Below are positions 1 through 4,894 of a DNA stretch of 11,927 nt, in pieces. The stretch lies in the IMG/VR virus record IMGVR_UViG_3300042006_000037. One strand, written 5' to 3'. Made by a program: the position numbers and the translations under genes. The notes below the pieces were generated by a model that was not told the origin of the DNA, made no database searches, and saw only the letters and a program-made list of their open reading frames with translations. Position 1 is the first letter of the stretch. Each line of letters opens with the position of its first letter. Origin of the DNA: a virus (lineage: Duplodnaviria > Heunggongvirae > Uroviricota > Caudoviricetes).

Positions 1-433
1 CGACATAATCATGGTAATCTTTGAACTGACGATAGATTACACCTTCACCAACACCATTTGGTCGCAGACGATCACGCTTGTAAGCAGTATCTTGTGCTAC
101 ATGAAACTCTTTGATTTCAACAACATAGCCAAGGTCTTGCAGAGTTCGCACCAGATTGTTACGACGACCGGTATTCAAGTTGGTGTCACTGATCACAATG
201 TTCTCATCACGCGCCCAACTTTCCATGATCATTTGTTCATGAACTTCGGAAACTTCTTTCTCATTCTTACCATTGAACTTGTAGTTGCTCCAGTTCGAAC
301 CCGGACATACGACATTGAATCGAATGTAATCCCGATTGATATCACGGAAACCTTGAGCAACAAGCTCATTTGCAAAAGTGGTTTTACCACTTGCACTTAC
401 ACCAACTGTAATAATTGCCTTCAATTTACACAT
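1..433 (-). CDS. pseT: Polynucleotide 5'-kinase (T4 PseT/Pnkp-like), N-terminal kinase domain; runs off the left edge
   Basis: Not in the ORF track. ATG at 433 with SD AAGGAG (435-440, minus). Translation MCKLKAIITVGVSASGKTTFANELVAQGFRDINRDYIRF...IVISDTNLN... has a P-loop GxxxSGKTT, the RD catalytic motif and the DxTNL motif of T4 Pnk. The start overlaps the ligase stop. Confidence 0.85.
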   Translation of the reverse strand, partial: MCKLKAIITVGVSASGKTTFANELVAQGFRDINRDYIRFNVVCPGSNWSNYKFNGKNEKEVSEVHEQMIMESWARDENIVISDTNLNTGRRNNLVRTLQDLGYVVEIKEFHVAQDTAYKRDRLRPNGVGEGVIYRQFKDYHDYV

Positions 434-1562
434 ACTCCTTTAGAATTTCCATTTTATAACTGTCGCGTTGATCATTGAACGCATGAATCGCACACATGTT
501 TTTAGCACGAGCTTGGAACAATGCTGCTTTAAACGGATGTTTTTGAGCAACTACAGCAAACTCCTTCTGCTCTGAGATTCCCTTGATTTCATCGTAAGAA
601 TCACCAATTGCATCTGTAAGCTTCAGATATGCGTTAACATATGGCATAATCACAACCTCATCATCCGGGAAGTAATTAAGATACTCGTGATGTTCACCAC
701 TAAGAACCAATTGCATTACACGTTTAGGATTCAAACCTTCACCACGAATATGGTGGACAGCCACATAAGTTGGAGACTTAACCTTTGCAATAGGTACACC
801 ATCTTGGTATACAACGTAACCTTCGTCAAGGTCTTTCAACTCACGAGAAGTGCGAAGACATTCTTCAACTGTGTCAAATCGATATTCTTTCGGTTGCTGA
901 ATCAGTTTAGACAGCGGGCATGATTCGTCGACCAACCACTCACGTTCATACTCTGTTTCGTATTCACCTGTTTCATTATTGCGTGCAGCAAGGAAATGTA
1001 GTTTGTAACCTTCATAACGTTTGACGACACGGTTTTCAACACTTGTCAATTCAAAGATATACGTGTTATGGAAATGGAGAAGCGACTGATTCATCAGTAG
1101 TTGAAAACGACTATCTGTATCACATCCAAGAGCCTTCAGCACCAGCTCCTTGAACGTTACACCATAACCCATGCAATCGCTCTCACCATAAGCTGTTCCC
1201 TTTGTAGAGACGTTCCAGCGGCCTTTGTGGCGATAGATCTTAATCAGACTACCGTCAACCTTGTCATAAGTAACTGCTTTACTCCAATCAATCACAGGCA
1301 TGACATTCAATGCCTCACCGTAGTTAAAGAATCGGTCGAAGCTGCGAGAAACAACACGTAAGGTTCCAGCTTCCAGAATCAGACTGCGACATTCCATCAC
1401 AATCGGATTTGTCTTTGGGCTATCAATCTGGTTGTAGTTCAGTACCAGCAGATCATCCACCTTCTTTACGCTGATTGCTAGCTGTTCGGTCAGTGCAGAC
1501 AATCCTTCATCCAGATCGTGAAGAGACGTACTATGTCGTTTGATGAATTCGATTACTTGCAT
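426..1562 (-). CDS. rnlA: ATP-dependent RNA ligase, T4 Rnl1-like
   Basis: Nucleotidyltransferase motifs: I (YDKVDGSLIKIY), III (YIFELTS), IV (DEGYVV), V (AKVKS). The N-terminal NY/ECRSLIL/RSFDRFFN segment is typical of Rnl1. SD GGAG upstream; adjacent to Pnk. Confidence 0.88.
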   Translation of the reverse strand: MQVIEFIKRHSTSLHDLDEGLSALTEQLAISVKKVDDLLVLNYNQIDSPKTNPIVMECRSLILEAGTLRVVSRSFDRFFNYGEALNVMPVIDWSKAVTYDKVDGSLIKIYRHKGRWNVSTKGTAYGESDCMGYGVTFKELVLKALGCDTDSRFQLLMNQSLLHFHNTYIFELTSVENRVVKRYEGYKLHFLAARNNETGEYETEYEREWLVDESCPLSKLIQQPKEYRFDTVEECLRTSRELKDLDEGYVVYQDGVPIAKVKSPTYVAVHHIRGEGLNPKRVMQLVLSGEHHEYLNYFPDDEVVIMPYVNAYLKLTDAIGDSYDEIKGISEQKEFAVVAQKHPFKAALFQARAKNMCAIHAFNDQRDSYKMEILKEYV

Positions 1563-3217: not shown

Positions 3218-3246
3218 TTGACATCAGAAGGGAGTCTCTGTATAAT
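3218..3246 (+). promoter_or_regulatory. Consensus sigma70 promoter of the tRNA operon
   Basis: TTGACA 3218-3223, 17 bp, TATAAT 3241-3246; start site expected around 3252-3253. Confidence 0.9.
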
Positions 3247-3396: not shown

Positions 3397-3473
3397 AGGT
3401 CGGTGGCTCCAATTGGTACAGCAGCGGATTCCAAATCCGCCAACTCTAGGTTCAAGTCCTAGTCGACCTGCCA
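3397..3473 (+). tRNA. trnW: tRNA-Trp(CCA)
   Basis: Acceptor AGGTCGG/TCGACCT, anticodon stem GCGGA/TCCGC with loop TT-CCA-AA, T-arm CTAGG-TTCAAGT-CCTAG, G73, encoded CCA. Confidence 0.95.
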
Positions 3474-3480
3474 AACAAAA

Positions 3481-3555
3481 GCGTGATTAGTGTAATTGGT
3501 AACACTTCTGACTTCCAATCAGACATTAAGAGTTCGAGTCTCTTATCCCGCACCA
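3481..3555 (+). tRNA. trnG: tRNA-Gly(UCC)
   Basis: Acceptor GCGTGAT/ATCCCGC (U4.C69 mismatch), anticodon stem TCTGA/TCAGA with loop CT-TCC-AA, T-loop TTCGAGT, A73, CCA. Confidence 0.9.
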
Positions 3556-3612
3556 AACAATAAGAGCACCAAGTGTGGCTAGGCACATGTCAACCCTCTA
3601 GCAGAATTTAAA

Positions 3613-3699
3613 TGGTAAGTGGGGGAACTGGTAGACCCATCGCACTGTTAATGCGACGACGAAAGTCAACTGTAGGTTCGAAACCTACCTTACCAGCCA
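3613..3699 (+). tRNA. trnN: tRNA-Asn(GUU) with a long variable arm
   Basis: Acceptor TGGTAAG/CTTACCA, anticodon stem TCGCA/TGCGA with loop CT-GTT-AA, 15-nt variable region with GAC-GAAA-GTC hairpin, T-arm GTAGG-TTCGAAA-CCTAC, G73, CCA. Confidence 0.88.
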
Positions 3700-3730
3700 A
3701 ACATGTTGTAACTAAAGAGGAGCTGTAAAG

Positions 3731-3856
3731 ATGGTTAAGTTTTACGATGCAACTAAAGAACACAAGATGATCGAGAAGAGTAAAGAGAAATCGAAAGGTC
3801 ATCCGAACAAAGGTTTGAAAGGTAAGAATCCTTATTCTGGTAAGGTTGTTTCCTAA
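3731..3856 (+). CDS. Small Lys-rich basic protein (41 aa) within the tRNA cluster
   Basis: SD GAGGAG 3717-3722; MVKFYDATKEHKMIEKSKEKSKGHPNKGLKGKNPYSGKVVS; fills the Asn-Asp spacer almost exactly. Confidence 0.65.
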   Translation: MVKFYDATKEHKMIEKSKEKSKGHPNKGLKGKNPYSGKVVS

Positions 3857-3863
3857 GTTTCAA

Positions 3864-3939
3864 AGTGTATTAGTATAGTGGTCGATTATGCTGGCCTGTC
3901 ACGCCGGAGACACGAGTTCAATTCTCGTATACACTGCCA
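3864..3939 (+). tRNA. trnD: tRNA-Asp(GUC)
   Basis: Acceptor AGTGTAT/ATACACT, anticodon stem CTGGC/GCCGG with loop CT-GTC-AC, T-arm ACGAG-TTCAATT-CTCGT, G73, CCA. Confidence 0.95.
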
Positions 3940-4005
3940 ATTACTATGTTTCACTGAGCGTGCTAAGGTTTCCGTCACCTAAGCGCCAGTAACTAAGACG
4001 GACAT

Positions 4006-4081
4006 GCCGGTTTAGCTCAGATGGTAGAGCAACGCACTTGTAATGCGGAGGTCGTGAGTTCAATCCTTACAATCGGCACCA
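4006..4081 (+). tRNA. trnT: tRNA-Thr(UGU)
   Basis: Acceptor GCCGGTT/AATCGGC, D-arm GCTC-AGATGGTA-GAGC, loop CT-TGT-AA, A27.G43 mismatch, A73, CCA. Confidence 0.95.
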
Positions 4082-4144
4082 AATTCGTAGAAATGCTATT
4101 TGGTCTAAACCAACAATAGCGAACGGGGTATACGCCCCATTATG

Positions 4145-4220
4145 TGAGATAACTGATTTGGGTTCGATTCCCACCTTCCTTGACCGGAAGTTGCACACCG
4201 GCTGCGATCAGGTAAGCTCA
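4145..4220 (+). ncRNA. Permuted tRNA-like cloverleaf no. 1 (YrlA/Y-RNA-like topology)
   Basis: Closing stem CTGAT 4153-57/ATCAG 4207-11 (extends to TGAG/CTCA); T-arm TGGG-TTCGATT-CCCA 4159-73; looped acceptor-like stem CTTCC/GGAAG 4175-90; D-like arm GCA-CACCGGC-TGC 4193-4205. Confidence 0.5.
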
Positions 4221-4303
4221 ACAGGTATTCAACTTTCGATACTAGTCAGATAGTTGTGTACCGGATCTAATTCAAGCAGGCTTGAGAACATCGCTTGTTA
4301 ACA

Positions 4304-4385
4304 GTTGCTTGGTGTGCATGGGTTCGAGTCCCATTTCTGGTGGCATACACCGGAGTAAGCTCAGTCGGTAGAGCTACCTAATAAC
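4304..4385 (+). ncRNA. Permuted tRNA-like cloverleaf no. 2 (YrlA/Y-RNA-like topology)
   Basis: T-arm ATGGG-TTCGAGT-CCCAT 4318-34; 7-bp acceptor stem TTCTGGT 4335-41/ACCGGAG 4349-55 closed by a 7-nt loop; D-arm GCTC-AGTCGGTA-GAGC 4359-74; closing stem GTTGCTTGGT/ACCTAATAAC. Confidence 0.55.
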
Positions 4386-4389
4386 AAAA

Positions 4390-4472
4390 GGATCAGTAGG
4401 GTAATTGGTAACCCAATGGACTGTAACTCCACGCTGAATGCATTGTTGGTTCGAGTCCAACCTGATCCACCA
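4390..4472 (+). tRNA. trnY: tRNA-Tyr(GUA)
   Basis: Acceptor GGATCAG/CTGATCC, loop CT-GTA-AC, class II variable region, T-arm GTTGG-TTCGAGT-CCAAC, A73, CCA. Confidence 0.95.
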
Positions 4473-4483
4473 ATTTGTAATAT

Positions 4484-4559
4484 CTCCTCTTAGCTCAGTT
4501 GGTAGAGTGCTCGGTTTGGAACTGAGAAGTCGAAGGTTCGAGTCCTTCAGGGGTGACCA
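4484..4559 (+). tRNA. trnP: tRNA-Pro(UGG)
   Basis: Acceptor CTCCTCT/AGGGGTG (C1-G72, U2.U71), anticodon stem CTCGG/CTGAG with loop TT-TGG-AA, T-arm GAAGG-TTCGAGT-CCTTC, A73, CCA. Confidence 0.93.
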
Positions 4560-4575
4560 ATTAAAGGAGTATTTG

Positions 4576-4746
4576 ATGAAAGTTAAAATGCGTCGTCGTC
4601 AACTTAAAGATATGGGACCAGCAGATTGTCGTTGCTGTTCACGTCTTAGTTGGAAAGAATGCAGACTTGATCGTCAGATACTGAAAGAAGTTTTAGAAGA
4701 TACAATGGTAGCTCAACCCGATGGACGGCGACGGGACTGGTCTTGA
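4576..4746 (+). CDS. Small basic Cys-containing protein (56 aa), overlapping tRNA-Ser
   Basis: SD AAAGGAG 4563-4569; MKVKMRRRQLKDMGPADCRCCSRLSWKECRLD...; the true start is 4576, not the track's 4438, which reads through two tRNAs. Confidence 0.6.
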   Translation: MKVKMRRRQLKDMGPADCRCCSRLSWKECRLDRQILKEVLEDTMVAQPDGRRRDWS

Positions 4747-4800
4747 AAACCGGCGAGCGTTAATAGCGCCTTTAGAGTTCGATCCTCTAAGCTACCGCCA
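4707..4800 (+). tRNA. trnS: tRNA-Ser(UGA)
   Basis: Acceptor GGTAGCT/AGCTACC, anticodon stem CTGGT/ACCGG with loop CT-TGA-AA, long variable arm, T-arm TAGAG-TTCGATC-CTCTA, G73, CCA. Atypical CAA connector and enlarged D-loop. Confidence 0.9.
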
Positions 4801-4806
4801 AACAAT

Positions 4807-4894
4807 AGTACAATGTCTGAGTGGCTTAAAGAAACGGTTTGCTAAACCGTCGAGTGTAAAAGCTCCGTAGGTTCAAATCCTACTTGTACTGCCA
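4807..4894 (+). tRNA. trnS: tRNA-Ser(GCU)
   Basis: Acceptor AGTACAA/TTGTACT, anticodon stem ACGGT/ACCGT with loop TT-GCT-AA, variable arm GAG/CTC, T-arm GTAGG-TTCAAAT-CCTAC, G73, CCA. Confidence 0.95.

What the first reader, a model, noticed from the sequence alone, without database searches (positions are those of the whole stretch)
4304..4385. Circularly permuted tRNA mimic no. 2: near-perfect tRNA elbow with a sealed acceptor stem, forming a tandem pair with no. 1
Seen: the 3'-half elements (4-nt variable GUGC, T-arm AUGGG-UUCGAGU-CCCAU, acceptor strand UUCUGGU) precede the 5'-half elements (ACCGGAG, UAA, D-arm GCUC-AGUCGGUA-GAGC, U, ACCUA). All 7 acceptor pairs form, the G15-C48 Levitt pair is possible, and the flanks pair over 10 bp with 2 mismatches where the anticodon arm would be. 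There is no CCA and no anticodon loop. Two such elements in one 300-nt spacer, each with G(G/A)UCUAA about 60 nt upstream of the T-loop (4102-4108, 4264-4270), argue against chance. Hypotheses: (a) phage Y-RNA-like RNAs, although no Ro60/Rsr gene is in this window and I see no clean match to the GNCGAA Ro-binding motif; (b) uncleavable tRNA decoys that titrate anticodon nucleases or elbow-binding proteins; (c) a permuted pre-tRNA matured by cutting and the neighbouring Pnk/Rnl ligation, as known in red algae and some archaea but not, to my knowledge, in phages. This is the best candidate for a new system here.
Basis: partly seen in the sequence, partly recalled or inferred. Interest (0 to 1): 0.85.

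Follow-up and report, generated by a model that had tools for sequence, protein, structure and literature searches.

The report
Handle-less back-to-front tRNA mimic
Inside this Pseudomonas-type phage's tRNA operon lies a real, selected gene for a small RNA shaped like a tRNA with its acceptor end sealed and its anticodon end open. It resembles the tRNA-like head of bacterial Y RNAs (YrlA), but it has neither the Ro60 protein nor the Ro60-binding stem that normally go with that head.

Summary
Positions 4304-4385 read, in order: closing strand, 4-nt variable loop, T-arm, an 8-bp acceptor stem capped by a 5-nt loop, D-arm, closing strand. All tRNA elbow nucleotides are intact, and there is no CCA and no anticodon loop.

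It is not a decayed tRNA junction. A divergent copy sits in the cultured Pseudomonas phage vB_PF_Y1-MI. There, 10 of 25 base pairs are changed on both sides and every pair is kept, while the D-arm, T-loop, GUGC and UAA stay identical. A model built without that phage scores it at 50.8 bits. True tRNA-tRNA junctions score 35 bits or less.

The fold is that of the YrlA tRNA-like module, but membership fails:
- Rfam scores it 19 bits against a cut-off of 69.
- There is no GNCGAA motif and no long handle.
- The carrier phages have no TROVE or DUF2828 gene.

The permuted pre-tRNA idea is not supported. Y1-MI lacks an Rnl1 ligase, and no anticodon loop is conserved.

Element 1 is a separate thing. 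It is the variable tRNA-elbow module of a conserved, roughly 220-nt structured RNA (4082-4303) found in eight phages.

The function is inferred: a non-decoding tRNA-body mimic or ligand, processed out of the tRNA operon.

This scan had already noted the same element on a sister phage (e1-5387318) and similar handle-less mimics elsewhere.

The parts
3218..3246 (+). Consensus sigma-70 promoter (TTGACA-17-TATAAT) of the tRNA operon. No + strand terminator-like site follows up to 5100.
4006..4081 (+). tRNA-Thr(UGU) with encoded CCA. Its 3' end abuts the conserved RNA.
4082..4303 (+). Conserved, roughly 220-nt structured RNA. Layout: hairpin 1 (4095-4120), CGAAC, hairpin 2 GGGGU-AUAC-GCCCC (4125-4138), outer helix UGUGAG (4143-4148) with CUCAACA (4217-4223), the element 1 domain, hairpin 3 (4224-4262), CUAAUUCA, and 3' hairpin AAGCAGGC-UUGAGAACAUC-GCUUGUU (4274-4299).
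   Evidence: Present in eight phages. The consensus fold has 42 pairs, 8 of them with changes on both sides.
4153..4211 (+). Element 1: closing stem CUGAU/AUCAG, T-arm UGGG-UUCGAUU-CCCA, sealed hairpin CUUCC-UUGACC-GGAAG, and a 16-nt linker containing GG. It has no true D-stem.
   Evidence: Seven sequence variants keep all three stems although the stem sequences differ.
4304..4313 (+). Element 2, 5' closing strand: GUUG pairs with UAAC 4382-4385, and UUGGU pairs with ACCUA 4376-4380, with one U.U and one C.A mismatch.
   Evidence: covaries with Y1-MI
4314..4317 (+). 4-nt variable loop GUGC. C4317 can form the Levitt pair with G4364. The loop is identical in Y1-MI.
4318..4334 (+). T-arm AUGGG-UUCGAGU-CCCAU.
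   Evidence: 2 of 5 pairs are compensated in Y1-MI
4335..4355 (+). Sealed acceptor stem UUCUGGUG / CACCGGAG (8 bp) capped by GCAUA. No CCA.
   Evidence: The stem sequence is almost wholly different in Y1-MI (9 bp, cap CUUGU) with pairing kept. The only difference from the sister phage G003 lies in the cap.
4356..4375 (+). UAA, D-arm GCUC-AGUCGGUA-GAGC, then U. All 20 nt are identical in Y1-MI.
4376..4389 (+). 3' closing strand ACCUA-A-UAAC plus an AAAA tail that ends at the predicted RNase P site of tRNA-Tyr.
   Evidence: the 3' end is inferred
4390..4472 (+). tRNA-Tyr(GUA), immediately downstream. In Y1-MI the element is likewise followed at once by a tRNA-like gene with a GUA anticodon.

Best explanation
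Positions 4304-4385 (with tails, about 4301-4389) form a gene for a small non-coding RNA of about 85-90 nt. It is a circularly permuted tRNA body.

Inferred steps:
- It is co-transcribed with the nine tRNAs from the promoter at 3218-3246.
- Its 3' end is set when RNase P cuts at the 5' end of tRNA-Tyr (4390).
- Its 5' end is cut away from the upstream conserved RNA.

Shown by sequence and covariation: it folds into a four-way junction whose T-arm, D-arm, variable loop and 8-bp capped acceptor stem keep every nucleotide needed for the L-shaped tRNA elbow. The anticodon arm is replaced by an open-ended irregular helix of about 10 bp.

Because it has no free CCA end and no anticodon, it cannot be charged or decode. 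Its most likely mode of action, which is inferred, is to occupy a factor that recognises the tRNA body (elbow plus acceptor/T-arm stack). That would make it a stable, non-consumable tRNA mimic used by the phage as a decoy or ligand in host RNA surveillance, tRNA-directed defence or tRNA processing.

In design it is the tRNA-like head of YrlA Y RNAs without the Ro60-binding handle and without a Ro60 partner. A possible extra step, by analogy with M. smegmatis YrlA (whose 7-bp acceptor stem is cut by RNase P and then receives CCA), is nicking in the acceptor cap.
For: 1. Anatomy and fold.
2. The Rfam YrlA model aligns precisely to 4304-4385 over model positions 16-93, which are the tRNA-like module.
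3. A homolog exists in Pseudomonas phage vB_PF_Y1-MI (L036 2492-2580), found by BLAST. It scores 50.8 bits (E 3e-15) with model R1, which was built only from the window and its sister phage.
4. In the alignment, 25/25 pairs are kept in all sequences and 10 pairs are changed on both sides. No shuffle out of 500 does as well. Controls with the partner slid by 1-3 columns give 37-59% pairing and 0-2 double changes.
5. Invariant between the two lineages are the 20-nt UAA/D-arm/U block, the T-loop UUCGAGU and the variable loop GUGC. This is the elbow.
6. In window, G003 and Y1-MI the element lies on the tRNA strand, directly upstream of a tRNA with a GUA anticodon.
7. One consensus promoter lies upstream, and no terminator lies inside the cluster.
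8. Precedent for expression: PAK_P3 sRNA2, an abundant late RNA of about 130 nt carrying a T-arm, lies between phage tRNA-Tyr and tRNA-Gln (PMC4933390).
9. [quoted passage not shown]
Against: - No expression data exist for this element.
- Only two independent lineages are known: window/G003, which are near-identical, and Y1-MI. All covariation therefore rests on one pairwise comparison, made on an alignment fitted to the model.
- The element is absent from eight related phage genomes searched with the model, so it is dispensable.
- The folding energy is no better than that of shuffles.
- No binding partner is identified. The decoy or ligand role is pure inference, and a sealed acceptor and missing anticodon rule out mimicry towards anticodon nucleases and CCA-end toxins.
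Confidence: 0.55

Rival explanations
1. It is a bona fide Y RNA. The element, alone or together with the upstream conserved RNA, binds a Ro60/Rsr-type protein supplied by the host and tethers it to an effector, as YrlA does.
For: - The topology and conserved positions are the same as in YrlA.
- Some Pseudomonas species, such as P. fulva, encode Rsr and YrlA (PMC4201824).
- The upstream RNA carries an invariant AGCGAACG (4118-4125), one letter away from GNCGAAN0-1G.
- The Y-like RNA next to the DUF2828/vWA protein of mycobacteriophage Archie has the same T-arm, sealed acceptor, D-arm order, and an acceptor hairpin nearly identical to Y1-MI's.
Against: - There is no GNCGAA anywhere in 4082-4389.
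- The closing helix is only about 10 bp with 2 mismatches, and its sequence is not conserved in Y1-MI.
- There is no TROVE, DUF2828 or DUF7788 gene in this phage, and no TROVE or DUF2828 gene in G003 or Y1-MI.
- Y1-MI lacks the upstream RNA.
- The host is unknown, so host Rsr could not be checked.
Confidence: 0.12
2. It is a processing or punctuation element. The tRNA-shaped fold serves mainly in cis to guide RNase P, RNase E or 3' exonucleases. It would define the ends or stability of the upstream RNA and help the unusual tRNA-Tyr downstream to mature, and it would have no role as a free RNA.
For: - In both lineages it sits directly 5' of a tRNA with a GUA anticodon, and those tRNAs are atypical (class II in the window, Sec-like in Y1-MI).
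- It lies inside one polycistronic operon.
- It is dispensable in relatives, where the 3' hairpin of the conserved RNA abuts tRNA-Tyr instead.
Against: - Strict conservation of the whole elbow (D-loop, T-loop, Levitt pair, variable loop) and of an 8-9 bp capped acceptor is far more than a cleavage signal needs.
- Other tRNAs in these clusters mature without such an element.
Confidence: 0.15
3. It is a relic: the 3' half of one tRNA fused to the 5' half of a tandem duplicate, without function.
For: - tRNA-tRNA junctions do score with YrlA-type models: 15-24.5 bits with Rfam YrlA and up to 34.6 bits with R1 for tandem paralogs in L009.
- The element is seen in few genomes.
Against: - There are 10 compensatory double changes, and all 25 pairs are kept between lineages.
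- There is no CCA or spacer. Instead a precise 5-nt cap closes an 8-9 bp stem in both lineages.
- The outer tRNA halves are absent.
- Real junctions do not seal the acceptor (alignments).
Confidence: 0.04
4. It is a permuted pre-tRNA that is circularised or ligated by the neighbouring Pnk/Rnl1 and opened at the acceptor, giving a functional decoding tRNA.
For: - The halves are in permuted order.
- Rnl1 (426-1562, minus strand) and Pnk lie 3 kb away.
Against: - The tails beyond the anticodon-like stem are not conserved (AUAACAAAA against GCAAACAAU), and the position that would be U33 is C in Y1-MI.
- The stem continues into a further helix instead of a 7-nt loop.
- Y1-MI has no Rnl1-family gene.
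- Relatives with Pnk/Rnl1 (phiPMW, SYP) lack the element.
Confidence: 0.03

Closest known systems
YrlA (Y RNA-like A; Rfam RF02553; Chen et al. 2014, PMC4201824; structure preprint 10.1101/312249)
   Same: - The parts come in the same order: closing helix, variable loop, T-arm, loop-closed acceptor stem, D-arm.
- The elbow nucleotides and a G15-C48-type Levitt pair are conserved.
- The acceptor stem is 7 bp or longer, as in M. smegmatis and mycobacteriophage YrlA.
   Different: - There is no GNCGAAN0-1G motif and no long 5'/3' Ro-binding stem.
- No Ro60 gene lies within 4 kb or anywhere in the phage.
- The element is embedded in a tRNA operon.
- It scores 19 bits against a gathering score of 69.
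- Chen et al. discarded hits at tandem tRNA genes and kept only hits near Ro60, so such elements were outside their catalogue.
Y-like RNA beside the DUF2828/DUF7788/vWA 'RNA-binding protein' of cluster L mycobacteriophages (Archie, NC_028878; L037 2450-2580)
   Same: - It has the same permuted cloverleaf.
- Its acceptor hairpin (AGCGGCCCUGUGUCGCUGU) matches Y1-MI's (GGCGGCCUUGUGUCGCUGU) at 17 of 19 positions.
   Different: - The Archie RNA sits on a long handle (GUGGACUCC...GGAGUCCAG) directly after the protein gene.
- It scores only 20-23 bits with R1/R2, so the sequence relationship to the window's element is not established.
PAK_P3 sRNA2 (Chevallereau et al. 2016, PMC4933390)
   Same: - It is a Pseudomonas phage small RNA encoded between tRNA genes, next to tRNA-Tyr and upstream of the terminase gene.
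- It carries a T-arm.
- It ends in an AGGCUUGAGA hairpin like the 3' hairpin at 4274-4299.
- It is experimentally abundant late in infection.
   Different: - Its fold is not a permuted cloverleaf.
- The similarity is to the upstream conserved RNA, at the level of short motifs only, and not to element 2.
Permuted tRNA genes of Cyanidioschyzon merolae and some archaea; two-piece (permuted) tmRNA
   Same: The 3' half (T-arm, acceptor 3' strand) is encoded before the 5' half.
   Different: - Those precursors yield an anticodon loop, or a tag reading frame, and a free CCA end.
- Here there is no anticodon loop, no tag frame, no G3:U70 and no CCA, and ARAGORN finds no tmRNA.

Membership tests
YrlA / bacterial Y RNA (RF02553) | tRNA-like module in the order T-arm, loop-closed acceptor-like stem, D-arm | tested here: met
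   The Rfam alignment covers model positions 16-93 at 4304-4385. The minimum-energy fold agrees.
YrlA / bacterial Y RNA (RF02553) | Score at or above the curated gathering threshold (69 bits) | tested here: not met
   The score is 19 bits here and 21.2 bits for Y1-MI. Ordinary tRNA junctions reach 24.5 bits.
YrlA / bacterial Y RNA (RF02553) | Ro60-binding module: GNCGAAN0-1G near the 5' end, on a terminal 5'/3' stem | tested here: not met
   There is no GNCGAA in 4082-4389. Model positions 1-15 and 94-114 are unmatched. The closing helix is not conserved in sequence.
YrlA / bacterial Y RNA (RF02553) | Encoded within about 4 kb of a Ro60/TROVE gene on the same strand | tested here: not met
   No TROVE match was found in this 104.9-kb complete genome, in G003 or in Y1-MI. 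No DUF2828 or DUF7788 match was found either.
YrlA / bacterial Y RNA (RF02553) | Bound by Ro60/Rsr; modified by TruB and DusA | not testable with these tools
   This needs immunoprecipitation and modification mapping.
Functional (decoding) tRNA, including permuted tRNA genes | 7-nt anticodon loop with U33, and a free acceptor end with CCA (encoded or added) | tested here: not met
   ARAGORN and the Rfam tRNA model call nothing here. The tails are not conserved, and the position that would be U33 is C in Y1-MI. The acceptor is capped.
Two-piece / permuted tmRNA | Tag reading frame, G3:U70, CCA end, pseudoknots | tested here: not met
   ARAGORN finds no tmRNA. Only the T-arm matches the tmRNA models, at 7.6 bits or less for element 2. 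The wobble pair is G4:U69, not G3:U70.
New family defined here (models R1/R2) | Conserved UAA-GCUCAGUCGGUAGAGC-U, UUCGAGU and GUGC, with covarying T, acceptor and closing stems | tested here: met
   Members are window, G003 (L012) and Y1-MI (L036) at 50.8-119.7 bits. Background hits score 35 bits or less.

The most novel reading that the evidence does not exclude
Phages of Pseudomonas carry a free-standing, Ro60-independent class of anticodon-less, acceptor-sealed tRNA mimics. They act as stable decoys or ligands for a host factor that reads the tRNA elbow, such as a tRNA-directed immune nuclease or sensor, the Rtc/Ro RNA-damage response, or a tRNA-processing enzyme. If so, the tRNA-like head of Y RNAs has an activity of its own. 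Together with the elbow module of the neighbouring 220-nt RNA, this would point to a toolkit of tRNA-shaped RNAs in phage tRNA operons.
Probability: 0.3. Interest if true: 0.85.

Novelty: new variant of a known kind. Interest (0 to 1): 0.6.

Why it matters
What the tRNA-like domain of bacterial Y RNAs does has been an open question since 2014. A natural version without the Ro60 handle or the Ro60 protein, kept under selection inside a phage tRNA operon, would isolate that domain's function. One carrier, vB_PF_Y1-MI, is a cultured phage, which makes the question testable.

The finding also bears on phage tRNA gene clusters. These are now known to counter tRNA-cleaving defences (PMC11555353, PMC11464382). 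It suggests that the clusters also carry non-decoding tRNA-shaped RNAs that annotation pipelines miss, or miscall as intergenic space or small ORFs.

Tried and rejected
Wider searches for more copies:
- Exact and degenerate DNA patterns for element 2 in IMG/VR found only the sister phage.
- The same kind of pattern in 185,579 species genomes found only ordinary tRNA tandems.
- Model R2 run over ten related phage records found no further member.
- Patterns for the upstream RNA found six IMG/VR contigs in all. The single metagenome scan found only one contig, which is also in IMG/VR.

Scoring methods that proved uninformative:
- Rfam YrlA scores do not discriminate, because tRNA junctions score as high.
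- The full-length YrlA hit at G000:63814-63947 (15.5 bits) looks like coding sequence and was dropped.

Partner proteins:
- I looked for TROVE, RtcB, DUF2828 and DUF7788 and found none.
- The DUF7873 partner suggested by earlier notes could not be searched by accession. Pfam scans of 30 ORFs of this phage showed no such family. This check is not exhaustive.

Other comparisons and rejected origins:
- T4 rnaC and rnaD were checked. rnaC has a T-arm but normal topology, with the ends at the acceptor. rnaD has none.
- The best tRNA look-alike for the two halves is SYP tRNA-Phe, which shares UAAGCUC...GAGCUA. The match is too weak to infer an origin.

Tools that could not be used:
- No literature on permuted tRNA mimics in phage tRNA clusters was found.

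Full report
**Setting.** The window is part of a complete 104.9-kb phage genome with direct terminal repeats. The phage is related to the Pseudomonas phages vB_PpS_SYP and phiPMW.

A consensus sigma-70 promoter at 3218-3246 precedes a cluster of nine tRNA genes on the + strand (3397-4894). There is no terminator-like site in between. Rnl1 and Pnk genes lie upstream on the other strand. Between tRNA-Thr (ends at 4081) and tRNA-Tyr (starts at 4390) lies a 308-nt spacer without a tRNA call or a plausible ORF.

**The observation.**
- a closing strand and a 4-nt variable loop GUGC;
- a T-arm with the canonical loop UUCGAGU;
- the acceptor 3' strand, a 5-nt cap, and the acceptor 5' strand, giving 8 bp in all;
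- UAA, a textbook D-arm, U, and the other closing strand.

U8, A14, G15/C48, G18G19, U54/A58 and G53/C61 are all in place. The isolated sequence folds into this four-way junction at minimum free energy. The energy is no better than that of shuffled sequence (z = -1.2), as is common for tRNAs.

The Rfam YrlA model aligns to precisely 4304-4385 over its tRNA-like module (positions 16-93 of 114). The score is only 19 bits against a cut-off of 69. That score is not evidence by itself. Ordinary tRNA-tRNA junctions in this phage and its relatives score 15-24.5 bits with the same model. Chen et al. warned of this artefact (PMC4201824).

**Is it selected?** Near-identical copies exist only in one sister phage, G003 (locus L012). 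It differs at one position, in the acceptor cap.

A BLAST search at low stringency then found a 66-nt match in an unannotated gap of the tRNA cluster of the cultured Pseudomonas phage vB_PF_Y1-MI. That sequence (L036 2492-2580) has the same architecture.

The following are identical to the window: GUGC, UUCGAGU, and the 20-nt block UAA-GCUCAGUCGGUAGAGC-U.

The stems differ but still pair:

| Stem | Window | Y1-MI |
|---|---|---|
| T-stem | AUGGG/CCCAU | GUGAG/CUCAC |
| Anticodon-like stem | UUGGU/ACCUA | GAAGU/GCUUC |
| Capped acceptor | UUCUGGUG-GCAUA-CACCGGAG | UGUGGCGGC-CUUGU-GUCGCUGUG |

A covariance model built only from the window and G003 (R1) scores Y1-MI at 50.8 bits (E 3e-15). The best tRNA junction, from two tandem paralogous tRNAs in L009, reaches 34.6 bits without a sealed acceptor. 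All others score 23 bits or less.

On the model-guided alignment all 25 pairs form in all sequences, and 10 pairs are changed on both sides. No shuffle out of 500 does as well. Sliding the partners by 1-3 columns gives 37-59% pairing and 0-2 double changes.

Two caveats apply. This is effectively one pairwise comparison, and the alignment was fitted to the structure. Even so, the pattern of invariant elbow and freely covarying stems is what selection on a tRNA-shaped fold predicts. It is the opposite of what a decaying relic predicts.

**Distribution and context.** Model R2 found no further member in ten related phage records. A pattern scan of the species-genome collection returned only normal tRNA tandems. 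The element is therefore rare and dispensable.

In window, G003 and Y1-MI it lies immediately 5' of a tRNA with a GUA anticodon. That tRNA is a class II Tyr in the window and a Sec-like tRNA with a GUA anticodon in Y1-MI.

None of the three carrier phages has a TROVE or DUF2828 gene. This phage also lacks DUF7788 and RtcB. Y1-MI has no Rnl1-family ligase and lacks the upstream conserved RNA.

**Element 1 and the rest of the spacer.** Alignment with relatives shows that 4082-4303 is a conserved, structured RNA of about 220 nt. It is present in eight phages: the window, five IMG/VR genomes found by exact pattern, L034, and the cultured phage Boevelstad.

Its invariant parts are:
- hairpin 1;
- CGAAC followed by GGGGU-AUAC-GCCCC;
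- an outer helix, UGUGAG with CUCAACA;
- a long hairpin with an AUACUAGU loop;
- CUAAUUCA;
- a 3' hairpin with the loop UUGAGAAYAUC.

These parts frame a variable domain, which is element 1. It consists of a closing stem, a T-arm, a sealed 5-7 bp hairpin and a linker of 10-16 nt containing GG. Seven sequence variants keep all three stems although the stem sequences are unrelated.

Element 1 is thus a tRNA-elbow module inside a larger RNA, without a real D-stem. It is a different entity from element 2. In L011, L013 and L034 the conserved RNA runs straight into tRNA-Tyr. In L010 and L014 an odd tRNA-like gene with an 11-nt 'anticodon loop' sits where element 2 is.

The first is a covarying hairpin tip. 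The second is part of CUAAUUCA. Y1-MI's copy of element 2 has neither.

The 3' hairpin also occurs alone between tRNA-Tyr and tRNA-Pro of phage UAVern, and in the vB_PpuM-Amme-3 group. A similar AGGCUUGAGA hairpin ends PAK_P3 sRNA2. That RNA carries a T-arm, lies between phage tRNA-Tyr and tRNA-Gln, and is among the most abundant late transcripts (PMC4933390). This is the best available evidence that such inter-tRNA RNAs accumulate in Pseudomonas phages.

**What it is like, and what it is not.** In design, element 2 is the tRNA-like head of YrlA. It is closest to the actinobacterial and mycobacteriophage type with an acceptor stem of 7 bp or more. In M. smegmatis that type is cut by RNase P and receives CCA (PMC4201824).

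The Y-like RNA next to the DUF2828/DUF7788/vWA protein of mycobacteriophage Archie has the same order of parts. Its acceptor hairpin is almost identical to Y1-MI's. This hints at shared ancestry, but the model score (20-23 bits) does not establish it.

Membership in YrlA fails on three defining features that were tested: the gathering score, the Ro-binding motif and handle, and linkage to Ro60.

The element is not a tRNA, a permuted pre-tRNA or a tmRNA. No anticodon loop is conserved, and the would-be U33 is C in Y1-MI. There is no CCA, no tag frame and no G3:U70, and ARAGORN is silent. The one carrier without Rnl1 argues against maturation by ligation.

**Mechanism.**
- Shown: a selected fold that reproduces the tRNA body, with a sealed acceptor and an open helix in place of the anticodon arm.
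- Inferred: co-transcription with the tRNAs; a 3' end set by RNase P cleavage at tRNA-Tyr; and accumulation as a stable L-shaped RNA that cannot be charged or decode, so that it acts by being bound.
- The partner is unknown. Candidates are a host factor that reads the elbow and the acceptor/T stack, such as a defence nuclease or sensor, the Rtc/Ro response, PNPase or tRNA enzymes.

tRNA-Tyr is a known target of Septu/PtuAB-type defences, which phage tRNA-Tyr counters (PMC11555353, PMC13096335). However, element 2 lacks the long variable arm that one of these papers (abstract of PMC13096335) reports as the cleavage site, so this link is only context.

Rival readings are host-Ro60 Y RNA (0.12), cis-acting processing element (0.15), relic (0.04) and permuted pre-tRNA (0.03).

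**Novelty.** I found no paper describing Ro60-less, handle-less permuted tRNA mimics in phage tRNA operons. Chen et al. filtered out hits at tRNA tandems and away from Ro60.

Earlier notes of this scan reported the same element on what appears to be the sister phage (e1-5387318). They also reported similar handle-less or differently partnered mimics in other phages (e1-5361100, e1-4113103, e1-4274050). I treated these as leads only. This is therefore a new variant of a known kind: solid as an RNA, open as to function.

Noticed in passing
window 4082-4303: A conserved, structured RNA of about 220 nt follows tRNA-Thr in eight phages. It has invariant hairpins and a swappable tRNA-elbow module (element 1). 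It matches no Rfam family at E<=10. Short motifs (CGAAC plus a GC hairpin; the AGGCUUGAGA hairpin) recur in the tRNA clusters of vB_PpuM-Amme-3, UAVern and Boevelstad and in PAK_P3 sRNA1/sRNA2.
   Followed up: partly
G000:C1:79225-79340 (- strand; outside the window), upstream of a Band_7/SPFH gene at G000:78094-78990: A tRNA-Leu-like gene (Leu-type D-arm, canonical T-arm GUGGG-UUCGACU-CCCAC, acceptor plus CCA) has a long insert where the anticodon arm should be. It lies under a TTGACT-17-TAGAAT promoter, and ARAGORN does not call it.
   Followed up: partly
L010 about 1226-1305 and L014 about 444-525: Where the window has element 2, two relatives carry an odd tRNA-like gene. It has an acceptor plus ACCA and a T-arm, but a 2-bp D-stem and an 11-nt 'anticodon loop' (ACAAUAUUAAA). 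ARAGORN does not call it.
   Followed up: no
L036 2580-2661 (vB_PF_Y1-MI): An unannotated tRNA with a Sec-like architecture (long acceptor and D-stems; Rfam tRNA-Sec 27.5 bits, below threshold) but a GUA (Tyr) anticodon lies right after the mimic.
   Followed up: partly
L036 (OR500437.1), whole tRNA cluster: The GenBank record annotates the tRNA genes on the strand opposite to the one on which ARAGORN and Rfam find them. Small 'hypothetical protein' ORFs are annotated over inter-tRNA RNA regions.
   Followed up: no
L010 about 1400-1505: Another tRNA-like gene missed by ARAGORN lies after tRNA-Pro. The 3' end of its T-arm and acceptor (GGGGUUCGAGUCCUCACUUCUGGU) resembles that of element 2 (GGGUUCGAGUCCCAUUUCUGGU).
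   Followed up: no
window 3613-3699 and L036 2404-2491: tRNA-Asn(GUU) has a long variable arm (87-88 nt) both in this phage and in Y1-MI, so this odd class II-like Asn tRNA is shared across the group.
   Followed up: no
window vs L008/L012 (G003): The Thr-to-Pro stretch is about 98% identical between the two phages, although their Rnl1 proteins are only 71% identical. This suggests recent exchange of the tRNA/RNA cassette. tRNA-Tyr differs by one compensated pair in its anticodon stem.
   Followed up: partly
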